From the human T2T-CHM13v2.0 reference genome, Homo sapiens, in assembly GCF_009914755.1 (NCBI RefSeq), contig NC_060946.1: a stretch of DNA of 64,000 bases. The stretch is one strand, 5' to 3'. A program made the position numbers and the translations under genes. How positions within the stretch are numbered: the first letter of the stretch is position 1; every line of letters begins with the position of its first letter. The notes under the pieces were generated by a model. It saw only the letters and a list, made by a program, of their open reading frames with translations, was not told the DNA's origin and did not search any database. Shown in pieces: positions 6,807 to 12,390 of the stretch.

Positions 6807-9800
6807 TTATTATACTTTAAGTTCTAGGGTACATGTGCAGAACGTGCAGGTTTGTTACACAGGTATACATGTGCCATGTTGGTTTGCTGCTCCCATCAAC
6901 TCATCATTTACATTAGGTATTTCTCCTAACGCTATTCCTTTCATAGTCCCTCACCCCCAAACAGGTCCCAATGTGAGATGTTCCCCGCCCTGTGTCCATG
7001 TGTTCTCATTGTTCAACTCCAACCTATAAGTGAGAACATGCGGTGTTTGGTTTTCTGTCCTTGTGATAGTTTGCTGAGAATGATGGTTTCCATCTTCATC
7101 CATGTCCCTGTAAAGGACATGAACCCATACTTTTTATGGCTGCATAGTATTCCATGCTGTATATGCTCCACAATTTCTTAATCCAATCTATCATTGATGG
7201 ACAATTGGGTTGGTTCCAAGACTTTGCTATTGTGAATAATGCCGCAATAAACATATGCGTGTGTGTGTCTTTATAGTAGCATGATTTATAACTCTTTGGG
7301 TATATACCCAGTAATGGAATTGTTGGGTCAAATGGTATTTCTCATTGTGGATCCCTGAGGAATCACCACACTGTCTTCCACAATGGTTGAACTAATTTAC
7401 ACTCCTACCCACGGTGTAAAAGTGTTTCTATTTTTCCACATCCTGTCCAGCATCTGTTGTTTCCTGAAATTTTAAAGATCGCCATTCTAACTGGCGTGAG
7501 ATGATATCTCATTGTGGATTTGATTCGCATTTCTCTGATGACCAATGATGAGCAATTTTTCATATGTCTGTTGGCTGCATAAATGTCTTCCTTTGAAAAG
7601 TGTCTGTTATATCCTTTGCCCACTTTTTGATGGGGTTGTTTTTTTTTCTTGTAAATTTGTTTTAGCTATTTGTAGATTCTTGATATTAGCCCTTTGTCAG
7701 ATGGGTAGATTGCAAAAATTCTCTCCCATTCTGTAGGTTGCCTGTTCAATCTGATAATAGTTTTGTTTGCACCCTGGTTTCGAACCAGGTACGCTACGGT
7801 CCCGGGGCCGTGAGCAAGGGCTGATGGGAAGGCACTTTCGTGCATGGGGGACACAGGCCCCGCTTCTCGGCTGTGAGGTTTTTTTTTTTTCTTTCTTTCT
7901 TTTTTTTTTTTCCCTGCCACATGTGACTCACCTCCCCTCCCTCAAACCTAACCTTCCCCTCAGGGGCCTTCTGCCCGCTTTGGGGTACCCATAGCGGGAC
8001 CGAGACGCTCCCTGGGTTCGAACCAGGGTCCGGGGCCATGTGCAGGGGCTGATGGGAAGGCACCTTCGTCAGTGGGAGACCCAGGAACGCTTCTCGGCGG
8101 CGAGGTTGTTTTTTTTTTTTTTTTTTTCCTGACACAGGTGCTTCACCTCCCCTCCCTCAAATCTTACCTTCACCTCAGGGGCCTTCTGCCCGCTTTGGGG
8201 TACCCCTAGCGGGCCCGAGAAGCTCCATGGGTTCGAATCAGGGGCGCAAGGTTCCCTGGGACCCAGAGCAGGGGTTGAAGGGAAGGCAGTTTCGTGCATG
8301 GGGGACCCAGGCCCCGCTTCTCGGCGGCGCGATTTTTTTTTTCCTGCCACAGGTGCCTCACATCCCCTCCCTCAAACCTAACCTTCCCCTCAGGGGCCTT
8401 CTGCCCACTTTGAGATACCCCTAGCTGGCCCGAGGCCCTCCCTGGGTTGGAATCAGGAACGCCAGGGTCCCCGGGTCCCAGCGCAGGGATTGAAGGGAAG
8501 GAACTTTCGTGCGTGCAGGACCCAGGAACGCTTCCTGGTGGCGAGTTTTGTTTTGTTTTTTTTCCTGCCACAGGTGCTGCACTTTCCCTCCCTCAAACCC
8601 CACCTTCCCCTCAGGGGCCTTCTGCCCGCACTGGGGAAACCATAGCAGGCCGAGATTCTCCCTGGGTTCGAAACAGGGACGCCAGGGTCCCGGGGCCATG
8701 CGCTGGGGCTGATGGGAAGGCACTTTCTTCCGAGAAGGACCCAGGAACGCTACTCGGAGGCGCGCTGTTTTTTCCTTTTTTTTCTGCTACAGCTGCGTCA
8801 CCACCCCTCCCTCACACCTTAACTTCCCCTCAGGGGCCTTCTGCCCGCTTTGTGGTACCCCTAGCGGGCCCGAGAGGGCCCTGAGTTGGAACCGGCGATC
8901 CATGGTAACCGGAGCCCAACCCAGGGACTGATGGGAAGGCACTTTTGTCCGTGGGGGACCCAGGCCCCGGTTCTCCGGGGCGCTTTTTTATTTCCTGCCA
9001 CGGGTGCCTCACCTCCCCTCCCTCAAAGCTTACCTTCCCCTCAGTGGCTTTTGTCCGCTTTGGTGTACCCCTAGCCGGCCCGAGACGCTGCGTGGGTTCT
9101 AAGCAGGGACGCCAGGGTCCCCGCGGTCCAGCACAGGGGCTGATGGGAAGGAACTTTCGTCCGTGGGGGACCCAGGAACGCTTCTCGGTGGCGCGTTTTT
9201 TTTTTTTTTTTTTTTTGTGCCACAGGTGACTCACCTCCTCTCCCTCACACCTTACCTTCCCCGCAGGGGCCTTCTGCCCACTTTGAGGTATCCCTATTGG
9301 GCCCGAGACGCTCCTTGTGCTCAACCAGTGACGCCAGGGTCCCCGGGACCCAGAGCAGAGGCTGATGGGAAGGCACATTCGTCCGTGGGGGACCCAGTCT
9401 CGGCTTCTCGACGGATCGGTTTGTTTTTTTTTTCCTGCCACAGGTGCCTCCCCTCCCTCAAACCTAACCTTCCCCTCAAGGGCCTTCTGCTAGCTTTGGA
9501 GTACCCCTAGCGGGCCCGAGACGCACCCTGGGTTCGAACCAGGGACGCCAGGTTCCCGGGGCCATGCGCGGGGGCTGATGGGAAGGCACTTTCTTATGTG
9601 ATGGACACAGGCCCGCTTCTTGACGGCGCTGTGTTTTTTGTTTTTTGTTTTTTTTCCTGCCACAATTGCCTCCCCTCCCCTCCCTCAAACCTAGTCTTCC
9701 CCCTCAGGGGCCTTCTGCTCGCTTTGGGGTACCCCTATCGGGCCCGAGACGCACCCTGGGTTCAAACCAGAGATGTCAGGGTCCCGGGGCCATGCGCTGG

Positions 9801-12390
9801 GGCTGATGGGAAGGCACTTTCGTCCTTGGGGGACCCAGTCTCCGCTTCTTGGCGGCGCGGTTTTTTTTTTTTCCTGCCACAGGTGCCTCATCTCCCCTCC
9901 CTCAAACCTTAACTTCCCCTCAAGGACCTTCTGCCAGCTTTGGGGTACCCCTAGCGGGCCCGGGACGCACCCTTGGTTCGAACCGGGGAAGCCAGGGTCA
10001 CCGGGGCCCAGCGCAGGGACTGATGGGAAGGCATTTTCTTCCGTGGGGGACCCAGGAATGCGTCTCGACGCTGAGTTTTTTTCTTTTTTTTTTTTTCATC
10101 CACAGGTGCCTCACCTCCCTTTCCTCAAACCTAACCTTCCCCTCAGGGGCCTTCTGCCCGCTTTGGGGTACCCCTAGCGGGCCTGAGTCGCTCCCTGGGT
10201 TCGAACCAGGGACGCCAGAGTATCCAAGGCCCAGTGCAGGGACTGATGGGAAGGCACTTTCGTCCGTGGGGGAACCAGGAACGCTTCTTGGCGGCGAGTT
10301 TTTTTTTGTTTTGTTTTGCGTTTTTTTTTTTTTCTGCCACAGGTGCCTCACCTGCACTCCCTCAAAACTTACCTTCCCCTGAGGAGCCTTCTGCCCGCTT
10401 TGGATATGCCTAGCGGGCCCTTTACAAAAAGCTCTTTAGTTTAAGTAGATCCCGTTTGTCAATTTTGGCTTTGTTGCCATTGCTTTTGGTGTTTTAGTCA
10501 TGAAGGCTTTGTCCAAGCCTATGGTATTGCCTAGGTTTTCTTGTAAGTTTTTATGATTTTAGGTCTTACATTTAAGTCTTTAATCCATTTTCACTTAATT
10601 TTTGTATACAGTGTAAGGAAGGGATCCAGTTTCAGTTTTCTGCATATGGCCAGCCAGTTTTCCCAGCACCATTTATTAAATAAGGAATCCTTTCCCCATT
10701 GCTTGTTTTTGTCAGTTTTTTTCAAAGATCGGATGGTTGTAGATGTTTGGTGTTATTTCTGAGGCCTCTGTTCTGTTCCATTGGTCTATGTATCTGCTTT
10801 GGTACCAGTATCATGCTGCTTTCCTTGCTGTAGCCTTGTATTATAGATTGAAGTCAGGTAGCGCGATTCCTCCAACTTTGTTCTTTTTGCTTAGGATTGT
10901 CTTGACTATGCGGGCTCTTTTTTGGTTCCATATGAACTTCAAGGTAGTTTTTTCCAATTCTGTGAAGAAAGTCAATGGTAGCTTGGTGGGGATGACATTG
11001 AATCCATAAATTACCTTGGGCAGCATGGCCATTTTCACAATATTGATTCTTCCTTTCCATGAGCACGGAATGTTCTTCCATTTGTTTGTGTCCTCTTTTA
11101 TTTCGTTGAGCAGTGGTTTGTAGTTCTCCTTAAAGAGGTCCTTCACATCCCTTGTAAGTTGGATTCCTAGGTATTTTATTCTCTTTGAAGCAATTGTGAA
11201 TGGGAGTTCACTCAGGATTTGACTCTCTGTATGTTATTGTAGGAATGTTTGTGATTTTTGCACATTGATTTTGTATCCTGAGACTTTGCTGAAGTTGCTT
11301 ATCAGCTTAGGAGATTTTTGGCTGAGACGACGGAGTTTTCTAAATATACAATCATGTCATCTGCAAACAGGGACAATTTGACTTCCTCTTTTCCTAGTTG
11401 AATATGCTTTATTTCTTTCTCTTGCCTGATTGCCCTGGCCATAACTTCCAACACTATGTGGAATAGGAGTGATGAGAGAGGACATTCTTGTCTTGTACCG
11501 GTTTTCAAAGGGAGTGCTTCCAGTTTTTGCCCATTCTGCATGATATTGGTTGTGAGTTTGTCATAAATAGTTCCTATTATTTTGAGATACATTCTATCAA
11601 TATCTAGTTTATTGAGCATTTTTTAGCATGAAAGCTGTTGAATTTTTTCGAAGGCCTTTTCTGCATCTATTGAGATAATCATGTGGTTTTCGTCATTTGT
11701 TCTGTTTATGTGATGGATTATGTTTACTGATATGCATATGTTGAACCTGCATCCCAGGGATTAAGCACACTTGATCTTGGTGGTTAAGCTTTTTGAAGTG
11801 CTGCCTGATTCGGTTTGCCAGTATTTTATTGAGAATGTTTGCATCGATGTTCATGAGGAATATTGGCTTAAAATTTTCTCTTTTTGTTGTGTCTTTGCCA
11901 GACTTTGGTATCAGGATGATGCTGGTCTCATAAAATGAGTTAGAGAGGATTCCCTCTTTTTCCATTGATTGGAATAGTTTCAGAAGGGTGGTACCAGCTC
12001 CCCTTTGTACCTCTGGTAGAATGTAGCTGTGAATCCGTCTGGTCCTCGACTTGTTTTGGTTGGTAGGCTATTAATTATTGCCTCAATTTCAGAACCTGTT
12101 ATTGGTCTATTCAGAGATTCAACTTCTTCCTTGTTTAGTCTTGTGGGGGATGTATATGTCCAGGAATTTACCCATCTGTCCTAGATTTTCTAGTTTATTT
12201 GCGTAGAGGTGTTTATAACATTCTCTGATGGTAGTTTGTATTTCTATGGGATCAGGGGTGATAGCCCCTTTATCATTTTTTATTGCTTCTCTTTGATTCT
12301 TCTCTCTTTTCTTTATTAGTCTTGCTAGCAGTCTATTTTGTTGATCTTTTCAAAAAAATAACTCCTATATTCATTGATTTTTGAATTTTT
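6807..12390 (-). mobile_element. 5'-truncated L1PA (mid-age, L1PA7/8-like) interrupted by a satellite array at 7769-10420
   Basis: The antisense L1 3'UTR starts at 6807 (ttattatactttaagttctagggtacatgtgc). ORF2 fragments include [29 protein letters not shown] and the RT motif [15 protein letters not shown] perfect 17-bp TSD tgtaacattcaattttt lies at 6790-6806 and 12391-12407. Confidence 0.95.
7769..10420. repeat. GC-rich ~220-bp tandem array, 12 monomers, gamma-satellite (GSATII-like)
   Basis: The landmark cctagcgggccc or a variant recurs at ~7990, 8205, 8420, 8640, 8860, 9070, 9293, 9506, 9734, 9950, 10173 and 10409. Monomers carry ggggccttctgcccgctttgggg, gatgggaagg and an oligo-T tract. 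Unit length and GC content fit gamma satellite. Confidence 0.85.

What the first reader, a model, noticed from the sequence alone, without database searches (positions are those of the whole stretch)
7769..10420. Gamma-satellite array inserted cleanly into an L1, with ends adjacent in monomer phase: footprint of a reintegrated satellite circle?
Seen: the L1 on both sides is one insertion (perfect 17-bp TSD at 6790-6806 and 12391-12407). Its sequence reads straight across the array: left ...ctgataatagttttgtttgc | right tttacaaaaagctctttagttt..., against the recalled antisense L1 ...ctgatggtagtttcttttgc|tgtgcagaagctctttagttt. Essentially no L1 is lost and nothing is duplicated. The array starts at gcaccctgg and ends at ctagcgggccc. 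In the monomer these are nearly contiguous (ctagcgggccc-gagac-gcaccctgg), so the insert is 12 whole units minus ~5 bp, with a 2-bp gc microhomology at the left junction. There is no poly(A), TSD or terminal inverted repeat. Inference: a 2.65-kb circle excised from a donor gamma-satellite array by monomer-monomer recombination, opened at one point and joined into a break by end-joining after the L1PA had inserted. This would be a route for satellite dispersal through eccDNA. Two random breakpoints would land this close in phase only a few percent of the time (~5-10/220).
Basis: partly seen in the sequence, partly recalled or inferred. Interest (0 to 1): 0.85.

Follow-up and report, generated by a model that had tools for sequence, protein, structure and literature searches.

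The report
Satellite block spliced into old L1
A 2.65-kb block of about 220-bp GC-rich satellite repeats was joined into a break inside an old L1 element next to the ribosomal gene arrays; it holds almost exactly twelve whole repeats, which hints at a circular DNA intermediate but does not prove one.

Summary
A tandem array of 12 units of about 220 bp (7769-10420) splits one antisense, 5'-truncated L1 that has a perfect 17-bp target duplication. The array lacks only 5 bp (7 if the shared GC is given to the L1) of 12 whole units.

New here: an old inverted copy of the locus, about 207 kb away on the same arm and on chr13 and chr21, carries the same L1 and flanks without the array. This is a true empty site. 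The insertion therefore came after the L1 and after the two arms split. It happened once, because all five acrocentric copies share both junctions. The junctions look like end joining: 2-bp microhomology, no target duplication, and a net L1 change of +1 nt.

A circular intermediate is not shown. No donor exists in this genome. The 12 units form a private lineage, so the permutation test cannot be run, and growth in place from a seed of at least 2 units is not excluded. The only evidence for a circle is the end-phase coincidence (chance 3-7%, noticed after the fact).

I put a circle at about 0.4. This is a clean new case of a known idea, not proof of it.

The parts
6790..6806 (.). Left copy of the 17-bp target-site duplication of the L1
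   Evidence: Identical to 12391-12407, and the only two occurrences in the window.
6807..7768 (-). 3' part of the L1 (antisense to the window), up to the insertion point
   Evidence: Aligns to two other L1 copies in the window at 85% and to the array-free paralogs at 86.5-86.8%. GC is 39%.
7769..7770 (.). GC shared by the L1 and the satellite unit (2-bp junction microhomology)
   Evidence: The empty site reads TTTGC here, and inner unit junctions read GAGAC-GC-ACCC.
7769..10420 (+). Array of 12 units of about 220 bp, GC-rich, gamma-satellite-like. The last unit lacks 5 nt.
   Evidence: GC is 59%, with 132 CpG, CpG observed/expected 0.57. Pairwise unit identity is 75-88%, mean 81.7%, with no higher-order period.
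9571..9798 (.). 228-bp stretch (unit 9 to the same phase of unit 10) absent from the chr13 and chr21 copies
   Evidence: Five-copy alignment: a one-unit loss in register, so whole-unit changes do occur in place.
10421..12390 (-). Upstream part of the same L1 (ORF2 remnant), 5'-truncated at 12390
   Evidence: Minus-strand open pieces match Pfam RVT_1 in collinear order: profile 1-64 at 12067-11693 (E 7e-05, below the curated cut-off) and profile 101-163 at 11622-11302 (E 3e-09, above it). The L1 without the array is 2932 bp.
12391..12407 (.). Right copy of the 17-bp target-site duplication
8039..8104 (+). Exon 1 of the predicted lncRNA LOC124908459, inside unit 2
   Evidence: Hub annotation table only; not tested here.

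Best explanation
Steps shown:
1. An L1 inserted by the usual target-primed route. It has a 17-bp target duplication and is 5'-truncated.
2. The region was then duplicated as the two arms of a large inverted repeat on the acrocentric short arm.
3. Later, a double-strand break inside the L1 of one arm was repaired by non-homologous end joining, which captured a piece of ~220-bp GC-rich satellite. The left junction has 2 bp of microhomology and the right has none. There is no target duplication. The net L1 change is +1 nt, with 2-3 altered bases at the right edge.
4. This one event later spread to all five acrocentric chromosomes.
5. chr13 and chr21 afterwards lost one unit by out-of-register exchange.

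Steps inferred:
- The captured piece held a whole number of units, at least two, minus 5-7 nt.
- Form of the incoming DNA, my odds: a once-cut circle of whole units about 0.4; a linear fragment whose ends coincide in phase by chance about 0.35; copying from a distant array by template switching about 0.15; other about 0.1.
- Whether all 12 units came in together (about 0.65) or some arose in place (about 0.35) is open.

The confidence given is for the shown core: capture by end joining after the arms split.
For: Empty site: three inverted paralogs (chr13, chr21, chr22) align to window 6392-7770 and 10429-13757 at 85.8-86.8%. The two blocks abut in the paralog, so they hold the same L1 and flanks with no array. 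Their sequence across the site matches other L1 copies without a gap.

One event: chr14, chr15, chr13 and chr21 copies have the same left junction and the same right junction, and their flanks are 98.4-99.3% identical to the window where measured (chr14, chr15).

Mirror arrangement: the L1 locus and window 30000-30800 both have inverted partners symmetric about roughly chr22:4.5765 Mb. This fits the >100-kb inverted repeat described for the distal junction (PMC6942050, passages read).

Whole units: profile phases 1-222 for the first unit and 1-218 for the last, of 223. Chance is 0.027-0.067.

At least two units at entry: the 11 inner junctions carry the GAGAC-type bases that the ends lack.

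Whole-unit change in place: 228 bp are missing in register from chr13 and chr21.

Block import favoured: none of 66 unit pairs is less diverged than the two arms. Pairs have minimum 12.0% and mean 18.3%, against 11.1-11.5% for the arms. Transversions are 10.6% mean against 4.3-4.9%.
Against: No donor array was found, so the source and its form cannot be checked.

The array changes about twice as fast as its flanks among the five acrocentric copies: 2.18x for all changes, 2.07x for transversions, 1.68x for non-CpG. After that correction the mean unit split falls at about 0.74, 0.96 or 1.1 of the age of the arm split, depending on the yardstick. Early growth in place is therefore not excluded.

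The 12 units share private states and sub-variants, as expected if they multiplied from few units.

The right junction has 2-3 substitutions and one extra base within 6 nt. A small deletion plus filler fits as well as 'no loss'.

The phase coincidence is one case, noticed after the fact. Among the other arrays of this family, 0 of 3 start/end classes have adjacent phases. Those arrays are not known to be insertions.
Confidence: 0.85

Rival explanations
1. A circle of whole satellite units, formed by unit-to-unit recombination in a donor array, was cut once, lost about 5 nt, and was ligated into the break.
For: The length is 12 units minus 5-7 nt, with chance 0.027-0.067 under random ends. The array's end plus GAGAC plus its start reproduces the inner junction at 9507-9540 but for one base. 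The junctions are of end-joining type. Satellite-derived circles and their reinsertion are proposed in flies (PMC7403614, passages) and plants (PMC2543021, listing and start of abstract only). Circle-mediated duplications are reported in the human genome (PMC7188851, abstract).
Against: There is no donor, so no permutation or hybrid unit can be shown. It is one coincidence found after the fact. The circle size cannot be given, because part of the array may have grown in place.
Confidence: 0.4
2. A linear satellite fragment with two independent ends was captured, and the near-whole number of units is chance.
For: Chance of 3-7% is not small for one case picked out by eye. The other arrays of the family show no phase adjacency: 0 of 3 end classes, namely 130 to 191/192, 130 to 151 and 48 to 192.
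Against: It needs the coincidence. Two breaks in a donor array are required, against one cut in a circle.
Confidence: 0.35
3. The array was copied, not moved. The broken L1 end primed on a distant satellite array through the GC microhomology, copied several units, and rejoined the other end (break-induced or synthesis-dependent template switching).
For: There is 2-bp microhomology at the left junction only. Base changes and an extra base cluster at the right junction. Such pathways are discussed for satellite insertions in Drosophila (PMC7403614, passages).
Against: It predicts no particular exit phase, so it also needs the coincidence. No template array survives in this genome. At 2.65 kb the copied tract would be long if all of it was copied at once.
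Confidence: 0.15
4. This reading is independent of the form of the incoming DNA. Only a small seed of 2-3 units minus 5 nt entered, and the 12 units arose in place by unequal exchange soon after.
For: All 12 units share states that are rare or absent elsewhere: column 152 C in 12 of 12 against 0 of 209, column 180 G in 10 of 12 against 5%, and column 101 G in 11 of 12 against 14%. Genome-wide patterns find the array's variant only in the five copies of this locus: 21 of 33 matches, with the 12 others all carrying T, and 25 of 37, with the 12 others all carrying the same 3 differences. Subsets of units share private sub-variants, for example one in units 2, 5, 9 and 10 against 0 of 209. The 12 units are one side of a branch, SH-aLRT 88. 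A whole-unit change in place is seen. The rate correction allows it.
Against: No unit pair is younger than the arm split before correction. After correction the mean split is 0.74-1.1 of the arm split, so growth would have to be squeezed into the earliest period and then stop. There is no alternating or higher-order pattern (lag means 80.5-85.2%). The stem of the clade is short (0.021) against end branches of 0.06-0.18.
Confidence: 0.35
5. The array is ancestral to both arms and was deleted precisely from the other arm.
For: None beyond formal possibility.
Against: The empty site reads as uninterrupted L1, base for base in register with two unrelated L1 copies. A deletion would have to restore the L1 exactly.
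Confidence: 0.01

Closest known systems
Rsp-like satellite insertions into 1.688 clusters on the Drosophila simulans and mauritiana X (Sproul et al. 2020, PMC7403614; passages read)
   Same: New satellite blocks appear at sites that are empty in relatives. Junctions show short microhomology. Circle reinsertion and template switching are both offered as mechanisms.
   Different: There the target is another satellite and the events recur with shared junction types. Here there is a single event in a transposon, no homology with the target, and an exact count of whole units that can be read off.
Circle-mediated duplication in the human genome (Takahashi and Innan 2020, PMC7188851, abstract read; Chicote et al. 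2020, PMC7450558, listing and start of abstract only)
   Same: [quoted passage not shown]
   Different: Those cases rest on a permuted order relative to a known donor. Here the donor is missing and only the whole-unit length speaks for a circle.
Gamma satellite, the human ~220-bp GC-rich satellite family (review PMC8125562, section 2.5 passages)
   Same: Unit of about 220 bp, GC-rich, strongly diverged units, cluster size in the 2-10 kb range.
   Different: It is described as pericentromeric, whereas this block lies in the region distal to the ribosomal arrays. Assignment to GSAT, GSATII or GSATX could not be tested, because no repeat library is at hand.
Capture of stray DNA at chromosome breaks by end joining, as for mitochondrial DNA inserts (recalled; no paper read here)
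   Same: No target duplication, 0-4 bp microhomology, little loss at the target.
   Different: The captured DNA here is nuclear satellite, with a whole number of units.

Membership tests
Gamma satellite (GSAT group) | Tandem unit of about 220 bp | tested here: met
   TRF period 215. Units are 211-238 bp and the profile has 223 positions.
Gamma satellite (GSAT group) | GC-rich, strongly diverged units, clusters of 2-10 kb (PMC8125562) | tested here: met
   GC is 59% against 37-39% in the flanking L1. Unit identity is 75-88%. The block is 2652 bp.
Gamma satellite (GSAT group) | Pericentromeric location | tested here: not met
   The block lies in a large inverted repeat on the acrocentric short arm, shared by chr13, 14, 15, 21 and 22. 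Related arrays (68-80%) lie on chr1, 2, 3, 4, 9, Y and the acrocentrics.
Gamma satellite (GSAT group) | Sequence match to the GSAT, GSATII or GSATX consensus | not testable with these tools
   No repeat library is available. Rfam and ARAGORN give nothing.
Reinserted circular DNA | Donor locus identified | tested here: not met
   Whole array and two sub-queries: nothing above 74% over the full length or 80% over part of it outside the five copies of this locus. Two genome-wide patterns find the array's variant nowhere else. The DNA search scores only the best candidates (29 of 94, 29 of 90 and 29 of 73), so it is not exhaustive.
Reinserted circular DNA | Insert circularly permuted relative to the donor, with the circle's own junction inside it | not testable with these tools
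   This needs a donor. Other primate genomes are not held.
Reinserted circular DNA | For a tandem repeat: a whole number of units, with ends adjacent in phase | tested here: met
   Phases 1-222 for the first unit and 1-218 for the last, of 223. Chance is 0.027-0.067.
Reinserted circular DNA | End-joining junctions without target duplication | tested here: met
Retrotransposed copy (target-primed reverse transcription) of the satellite | Poly(A) at one end and a target-site duplication | tested here: not met
   Neither is present at the array ends.
L1 (LINE-1) insertion, host of the array | Target-site duplication, reverse transcriptase remnant, 5' truncation | tested here: met
17-bp duplication. 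RVT_1 pieces lie in collinear order on the minus strand. Length is 2932 bp.
Distal-junction inverted repeat of the acrocentric short arms | Near-identical on all five acrocentrics, with two arms of >100 kb in mirror order (PMC6942050) | tested here: met
   Copies on four other chromosomes: 99-100% over 507 bp and 99% over 801 bp; 98.4-99.3% over about 9 kb for chr14 and chr15. Mirror partners were found for two loci 23 kb apart, with an axis near chr22:4.5765 Mb. Adjacency to the ribosomal array was not tested.

The most novel reading that the evidence does not exclude
A circle of whole gamma-satellite units, shed from an array that no longer exists in this genome, re-entered the germline genome at a break in an L1 beside the ribosomal gene arrays and was then carried to all five acrocentric chromosomes. 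This would be a dated, base-resolved human example of satellite dispersal through extrachromosomal circles, with its empty site preserved in the other arm of the same inverted repeat.
Probability: 0.35. Interest if true: 0.6.

Novelty: new member of a known kind. Interest (0 to 1): 0.4.

Why it matters
How satellite blocks reach new places is largely inferred from patterns, and base-level before-and-after pairs are rare. Here the two arms of one inverted repeat give that pair in a single genome: the same L1 with and without the block. The junctions can therefore be read exactly. The case shows that a satellite block can be captured at a break with almost no damage to the target, then persist for tens of millions of years with only whole-unit changes. 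The locus lies in the region next to the ribosomal arrays that is shared and exchanged among five chromosomes, so one capture event became fixed on all of them. A predicted non-coding RNA starts inside the block. The case offers a sharp test of the circle idea but cannot settle it on its own.

Tried and rejected
1. Donor search. I searched with the whole array, units 1-3, units 10-12, a 30-nt pattern at up to 1 mismatch and a 40-nt pattern at up to 3 mismatches. No array is closer to the insert than its own units are to each other. Per-unit best hits are 79.4-85.4% within the array and 79.4-84.5% among 538 units from 25 other loci.

2. End-phase survey of other arrays. The arrays returned are not independent. 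All 11 left flanks examined are 94-100% identical, so they are one array spread by segmental duplication. A second group (chr3, chr4, chr15) shares phases 48 to 192. Only 3 start/end classes resulted and none is adjacent, which is too few to test a bias. Three further loci (L049-L051) did not include array ends.

A smaller set of 6 regions was obtained.

4. Single-unit seed: rejected, because the inner junctions carry the bases that the ends lack.

5. Dating growth in place from raw divergence: the first result seemed to exclude it, but calibration among the five copies showed the array changes about 2x faster than its flanks. The exclusion was withdrawn.

6. A tRNA or other RNA origin of the unit, suggested by a T-arm-like word and a T run: ARAGORN found 0 genes and Rfam 0 matches at E up to 1.

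7. Retrotransposition of the array and precise deletion from the other arm: rejected.

9. Literature. No paper found links gamma satellite with circular DNA beyond passing mentions; 3 papers hold both terms and none is about this. The phrases 'satellite insertions' and 'evolutionary landscape of centromeres' found 4 unrelated papers. No paper on this array was seen. Supplements were not consulted.

10. The array lengths printed there are 2-4 nt short of the true ones.

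
Full report
WHAT IS THERE

The window is chr22:4464001-4528000 of the complete human assembly (hub note; confirmed). 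At 6807-12390 lies one L1 remnant on the minus strand, bounded by identical 17-mers at 6790-6806 and 12391-12407. These 17-mers occur nowhere else in the window.

Minus-strand open pieces match the reverse-transcriptase profile RVT_1 in collinear order. Profile 101-163 scores E 3e-09, above the curated cut-off. Profile 1-64 scores E 7e-05, below it.

The L1 is split at 7768/10421 by a tandem array. Tandem Repeats Finder reports period 215, 11.5 copies and 76% matches. The self-comparison and an alignment resolve 12 units of 211-238 bp. The array has 59% GC and 132 CpG, against 37-39% GC in the L1. These features fit the published description of gamma satellite: a GC-rich, strongly diverged 220-bp unit in clusters of 2-10 kb (PMC8125562, passages). 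I could not test the name against a repeat library.

- A profile of the 12 units (223 positions) places the first unit at positions 1-222 and the last at 1-218.
- The last unit lacks only the 5 nt GAGAC that the inner junctions carry.
- The array's end, those 5 nt and the array's start together reproduce the inner junction at 9507-9540 but for one base.
- The GC at 7769-7770 fits both the L1 and the unit, so the deficit is 5-7 nt.
- Under random, independent break phases this closeness has a chance of 0.027-0.036 (deficit only) or 0.049-0.067 (either sign).
- No poly(A), target duplication or terminal inverted repeat flanks the array.

THE KEY NEW RESULT: AN EMPTY SITE IN THE SAME GENOME

A search with the left flank found near-identical copies on chr21, 14, 15 and 13 (99-100%). 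It also found inverted copies at 83-84% on chr13, chr21 and chr22 (40 of 1955 candidates scored).

The inverted copies align to window 6392-7770 and 10429-13757 at 85.8-86.8%. The two blocks abut there. These alignments run through both ends of the L1. The inverted copies therefore hold the same L1 insertion and the same flanks, but no array.

Across the site they read as uninterrupted L1, in register with two unrelated L1 copies of the window. The chr22 partner lies about 207 kb away. A second window segment, 30000-30800, has its partner mirrored about the same axis, near chr22:4.5765 Mb. This matches the inverted repeat of more than 100 kb described for the distal junction next to the ribosomal arrays on all five acrocentrics (PMC6942050, passages).

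The order of events is therefore: L1 insertion, then duplication into two arms, then entry of the array into one arm.

THE JUNCTIONS

- The empty site reads TTTGC followed by TGTGTAGAAGC.
- On the left, the filled site reads TTTGC followed by the unit from ACCC onward.
- On the right, it reads TTTACAAGAAGC on chr13, 15 and 21, with one further G-to-A on chr22 and chr14.
- The net L1 length change is +1 nt, with 2-3 altered bases in the first 6 nt. The alternative is that about 5 nt were lost and 6 nt of filler were added.
- Either way this is end joining, with 2 bp of microhomology on one side and none on the other.
- All five acrocentric copies share both junctions, so it was one event that later spread among the chromosomes.

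WHERE DID IT COME FROM?

No donor was found.

- With the whole array as query, the five copies of this locus score 92-100% and everything else 68-74% (29 of 94 candidates scored).
- With units 1-3 and units 10-12 as queries, the best hits after the five in-register copies of this locus are out-of-register hits within those same five arrays (76-81%). Other arrays reach at most 77% over the full query, or 80% over part of it.
- Per unit, the best match inside the array (79.4-85.4%) and the best among 538 units from 25 other loci (79.4-84.5%) are alike.

The 12 units nevertheless share a signature. I compared them with 209 units from 10 of those loci. Some of these loci overlap or are paralogs, so the 209 are not independent.

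- Column 152 is C in 12 of 12 units against 0 of 209.
- Column 180 is G in 10 of 12 against 5%.
- Column 101 is G in 11 of 12 against 14%.
- A 20-bp piece is kept in 12 of 12 against 38%.

Two genome-wide pattern searches confirm this.

- A 30-mer at up to 1 mismatch has 33 matches. Of these, 21 are in the five copies of this locus and 12 are elsewhere. All 12 elsewhere carry T where this array has G.
- A 40-mer at up to 3 mismatches has 37 matches, 25 in the five copies of this locus and 12 elsewhere. All 12 elsewhere carry the same three differences.

Subsets of units also share private sub-variants. One is found in units 2, 5, 9 and 10 and in 0 of 209 others.

I built a tree of the 12 units plus 60 units drawn at random from four other loci, using 194 of 223 columns with the T-run columns dropped. 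The 12 units form one side of a branch. Support is SH-aLRT 88, below the tool's threshold for a firm branch. The stem is short (0.021) and the end branches long (0.06-0.18).

The array is therefore a private lineage. Either its donor is gone, or part of it multiplied in place.

DID IT GROW IN PLACE?

Whole-unit change in place does happen. The chr13 and chr21 copies lack exactly 228 bp, from within unit 9 to the same phase of unit 10.

A single-unit seed is excluded, because the inner junctions carry bases that the ends lack.

Raw divergence seemed to exclude growth in place. The two arms differ by 11.1-11.5% (non-CpG 10.0-10.4%, transversions 4.3-4.9%). The 66 unit pairs differ by 12.0-24.9%, with mean 18.3% (non-CpG 16.5%, transversions 10.6%).

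However, among the five acrocentric copies the array changes faster than its flanks: 2.18x overall, 2.07x for transversions and 1.68x for non-CpG (the ten pairs are not independent). After this correction the mean unit split falls at about 0.74, 0.96 or 1.1 of the age of the arm split, depending on the yardstick. Growth in place is thus possible only if it was early and then stopped.

There is no periodic pattern among units; lag means are 80.5-85.2%. I put entry as a multi-unit block at about 0.65.

None of this touches the phase argument. Gains and losses of whole units leave the two end phases as they were at entry.

IS A CIRCLE SHOWN?

No. The whole-unit length is what a once-cut circle predicts, and it is the only evidence.

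- A linear fragment needs a 3-7% coincidence.
- Template switching needs the same coincidence.
- A preferred break point in the unit would also give whole-unit pieces. The few other array ends seen lie at other phases: 130, 48, 151 and 191/192.
- The hoped-for survey of end phases failed for lack of independent arrays. The arrays found are a few ancestral blocks copied by segmental duplication. That left 3 start/end classes, none adjacent.

Weighing a likelihood ratio of roughly ten against selection after the fact, I give a circle about 0.4.

COMPARISON WITH WHAT IS KNOWN

- Satellite spread through circles, or through microhomology-mediated repair, is an established proposal in Drosophila (PMC7403614, passages).
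- Satellite-derived circles are documented in plants (PMC2543021, listing and start of abstract only).
- Circle-mediated duplications have been reported in the human genome (PMC7188851, abstract; PMC7450558, listing and start of abstract only).
- I found no paper on this array or on gamma-satellite circles.

The case is a new, unusually clean member of a known kind. Its value lies in the preserved empty site and the exact unit count.

VERDICT

- Observation: confirmed.
- Capture by end joining after the arm split: about 0.85.
- Circular intermediate: about 0.4.
- Interest: moderate.

Noticed in passing
window 8039-8104 (+): Exon 1 of the predicted lncRNA LOC124908459 (hub table) lies inside unit 2 of the array (8007-8221). 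The CpG-rich satellite block may provide that transcript's start.
   Followed up: no
L021-L045 (chr9 x4, 13, 14, 15, 21, 22, Y, 2); L046-L048 (chr3, 4, 15): The other arrays of this ~220-bp family are few ancestral blocks copied by segmental duplication. In one group, all 11 left flanks examined are 94-100% identical and every array starts at profile phase 130. A second group starts at phase 48 and ends at 192.
   Followed up: partly
L021-L043, profile columns 149-168: 62% of 209 units in the other arrays lack a 20-bp piece that all 12 units of this array keep. Those arrays therefore mix units of about 203 bp and about 223 bp.
   Followed up: no
window 30000-30800 and chr22:4658446-4658946 (-): The mirror paralog in the other arm is 91-92% identical but lacks about 292 bp (query positions 219-510). 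This is another indel difference between the two arms. Copies at 86-89% also exist on chr3, 4, 10, 14, 20 and 22.
   Followed up: no
window 7769-10420 against its flanks, five acrocentric copies: The satellite block accumulates differences among the five chromosomes about twice as fast as the flanking L1 (2.18x overall, 2.07x transversions, 1.68x non-CpG). CpG decay alone does not explain this, and out-of-register conversion within the array may contribute.
   Followed up: partly
window 10421-10432 and the same site on chr13, 15 and 21: chr22 and chr14 share an A where chr13, 15 and 21 have a G, 8 nt from the right junction. chr13 and chr21 share the one-unit deletion. The five copies thus fall into sub-groups that cut across these two markers (chr15 groups with 13 and 21 at the base but with 22 and 14 for unit number), a sign of exchange among the chromosomes.
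   Followed up: no
window 7769-10420: Each unit carries a word like a tRNA T-arm (GGTTCGAACC) and a T run, but ARAGORN finds no tRNA and Rfam finds no family at E up to 1.
   Followed up: yes
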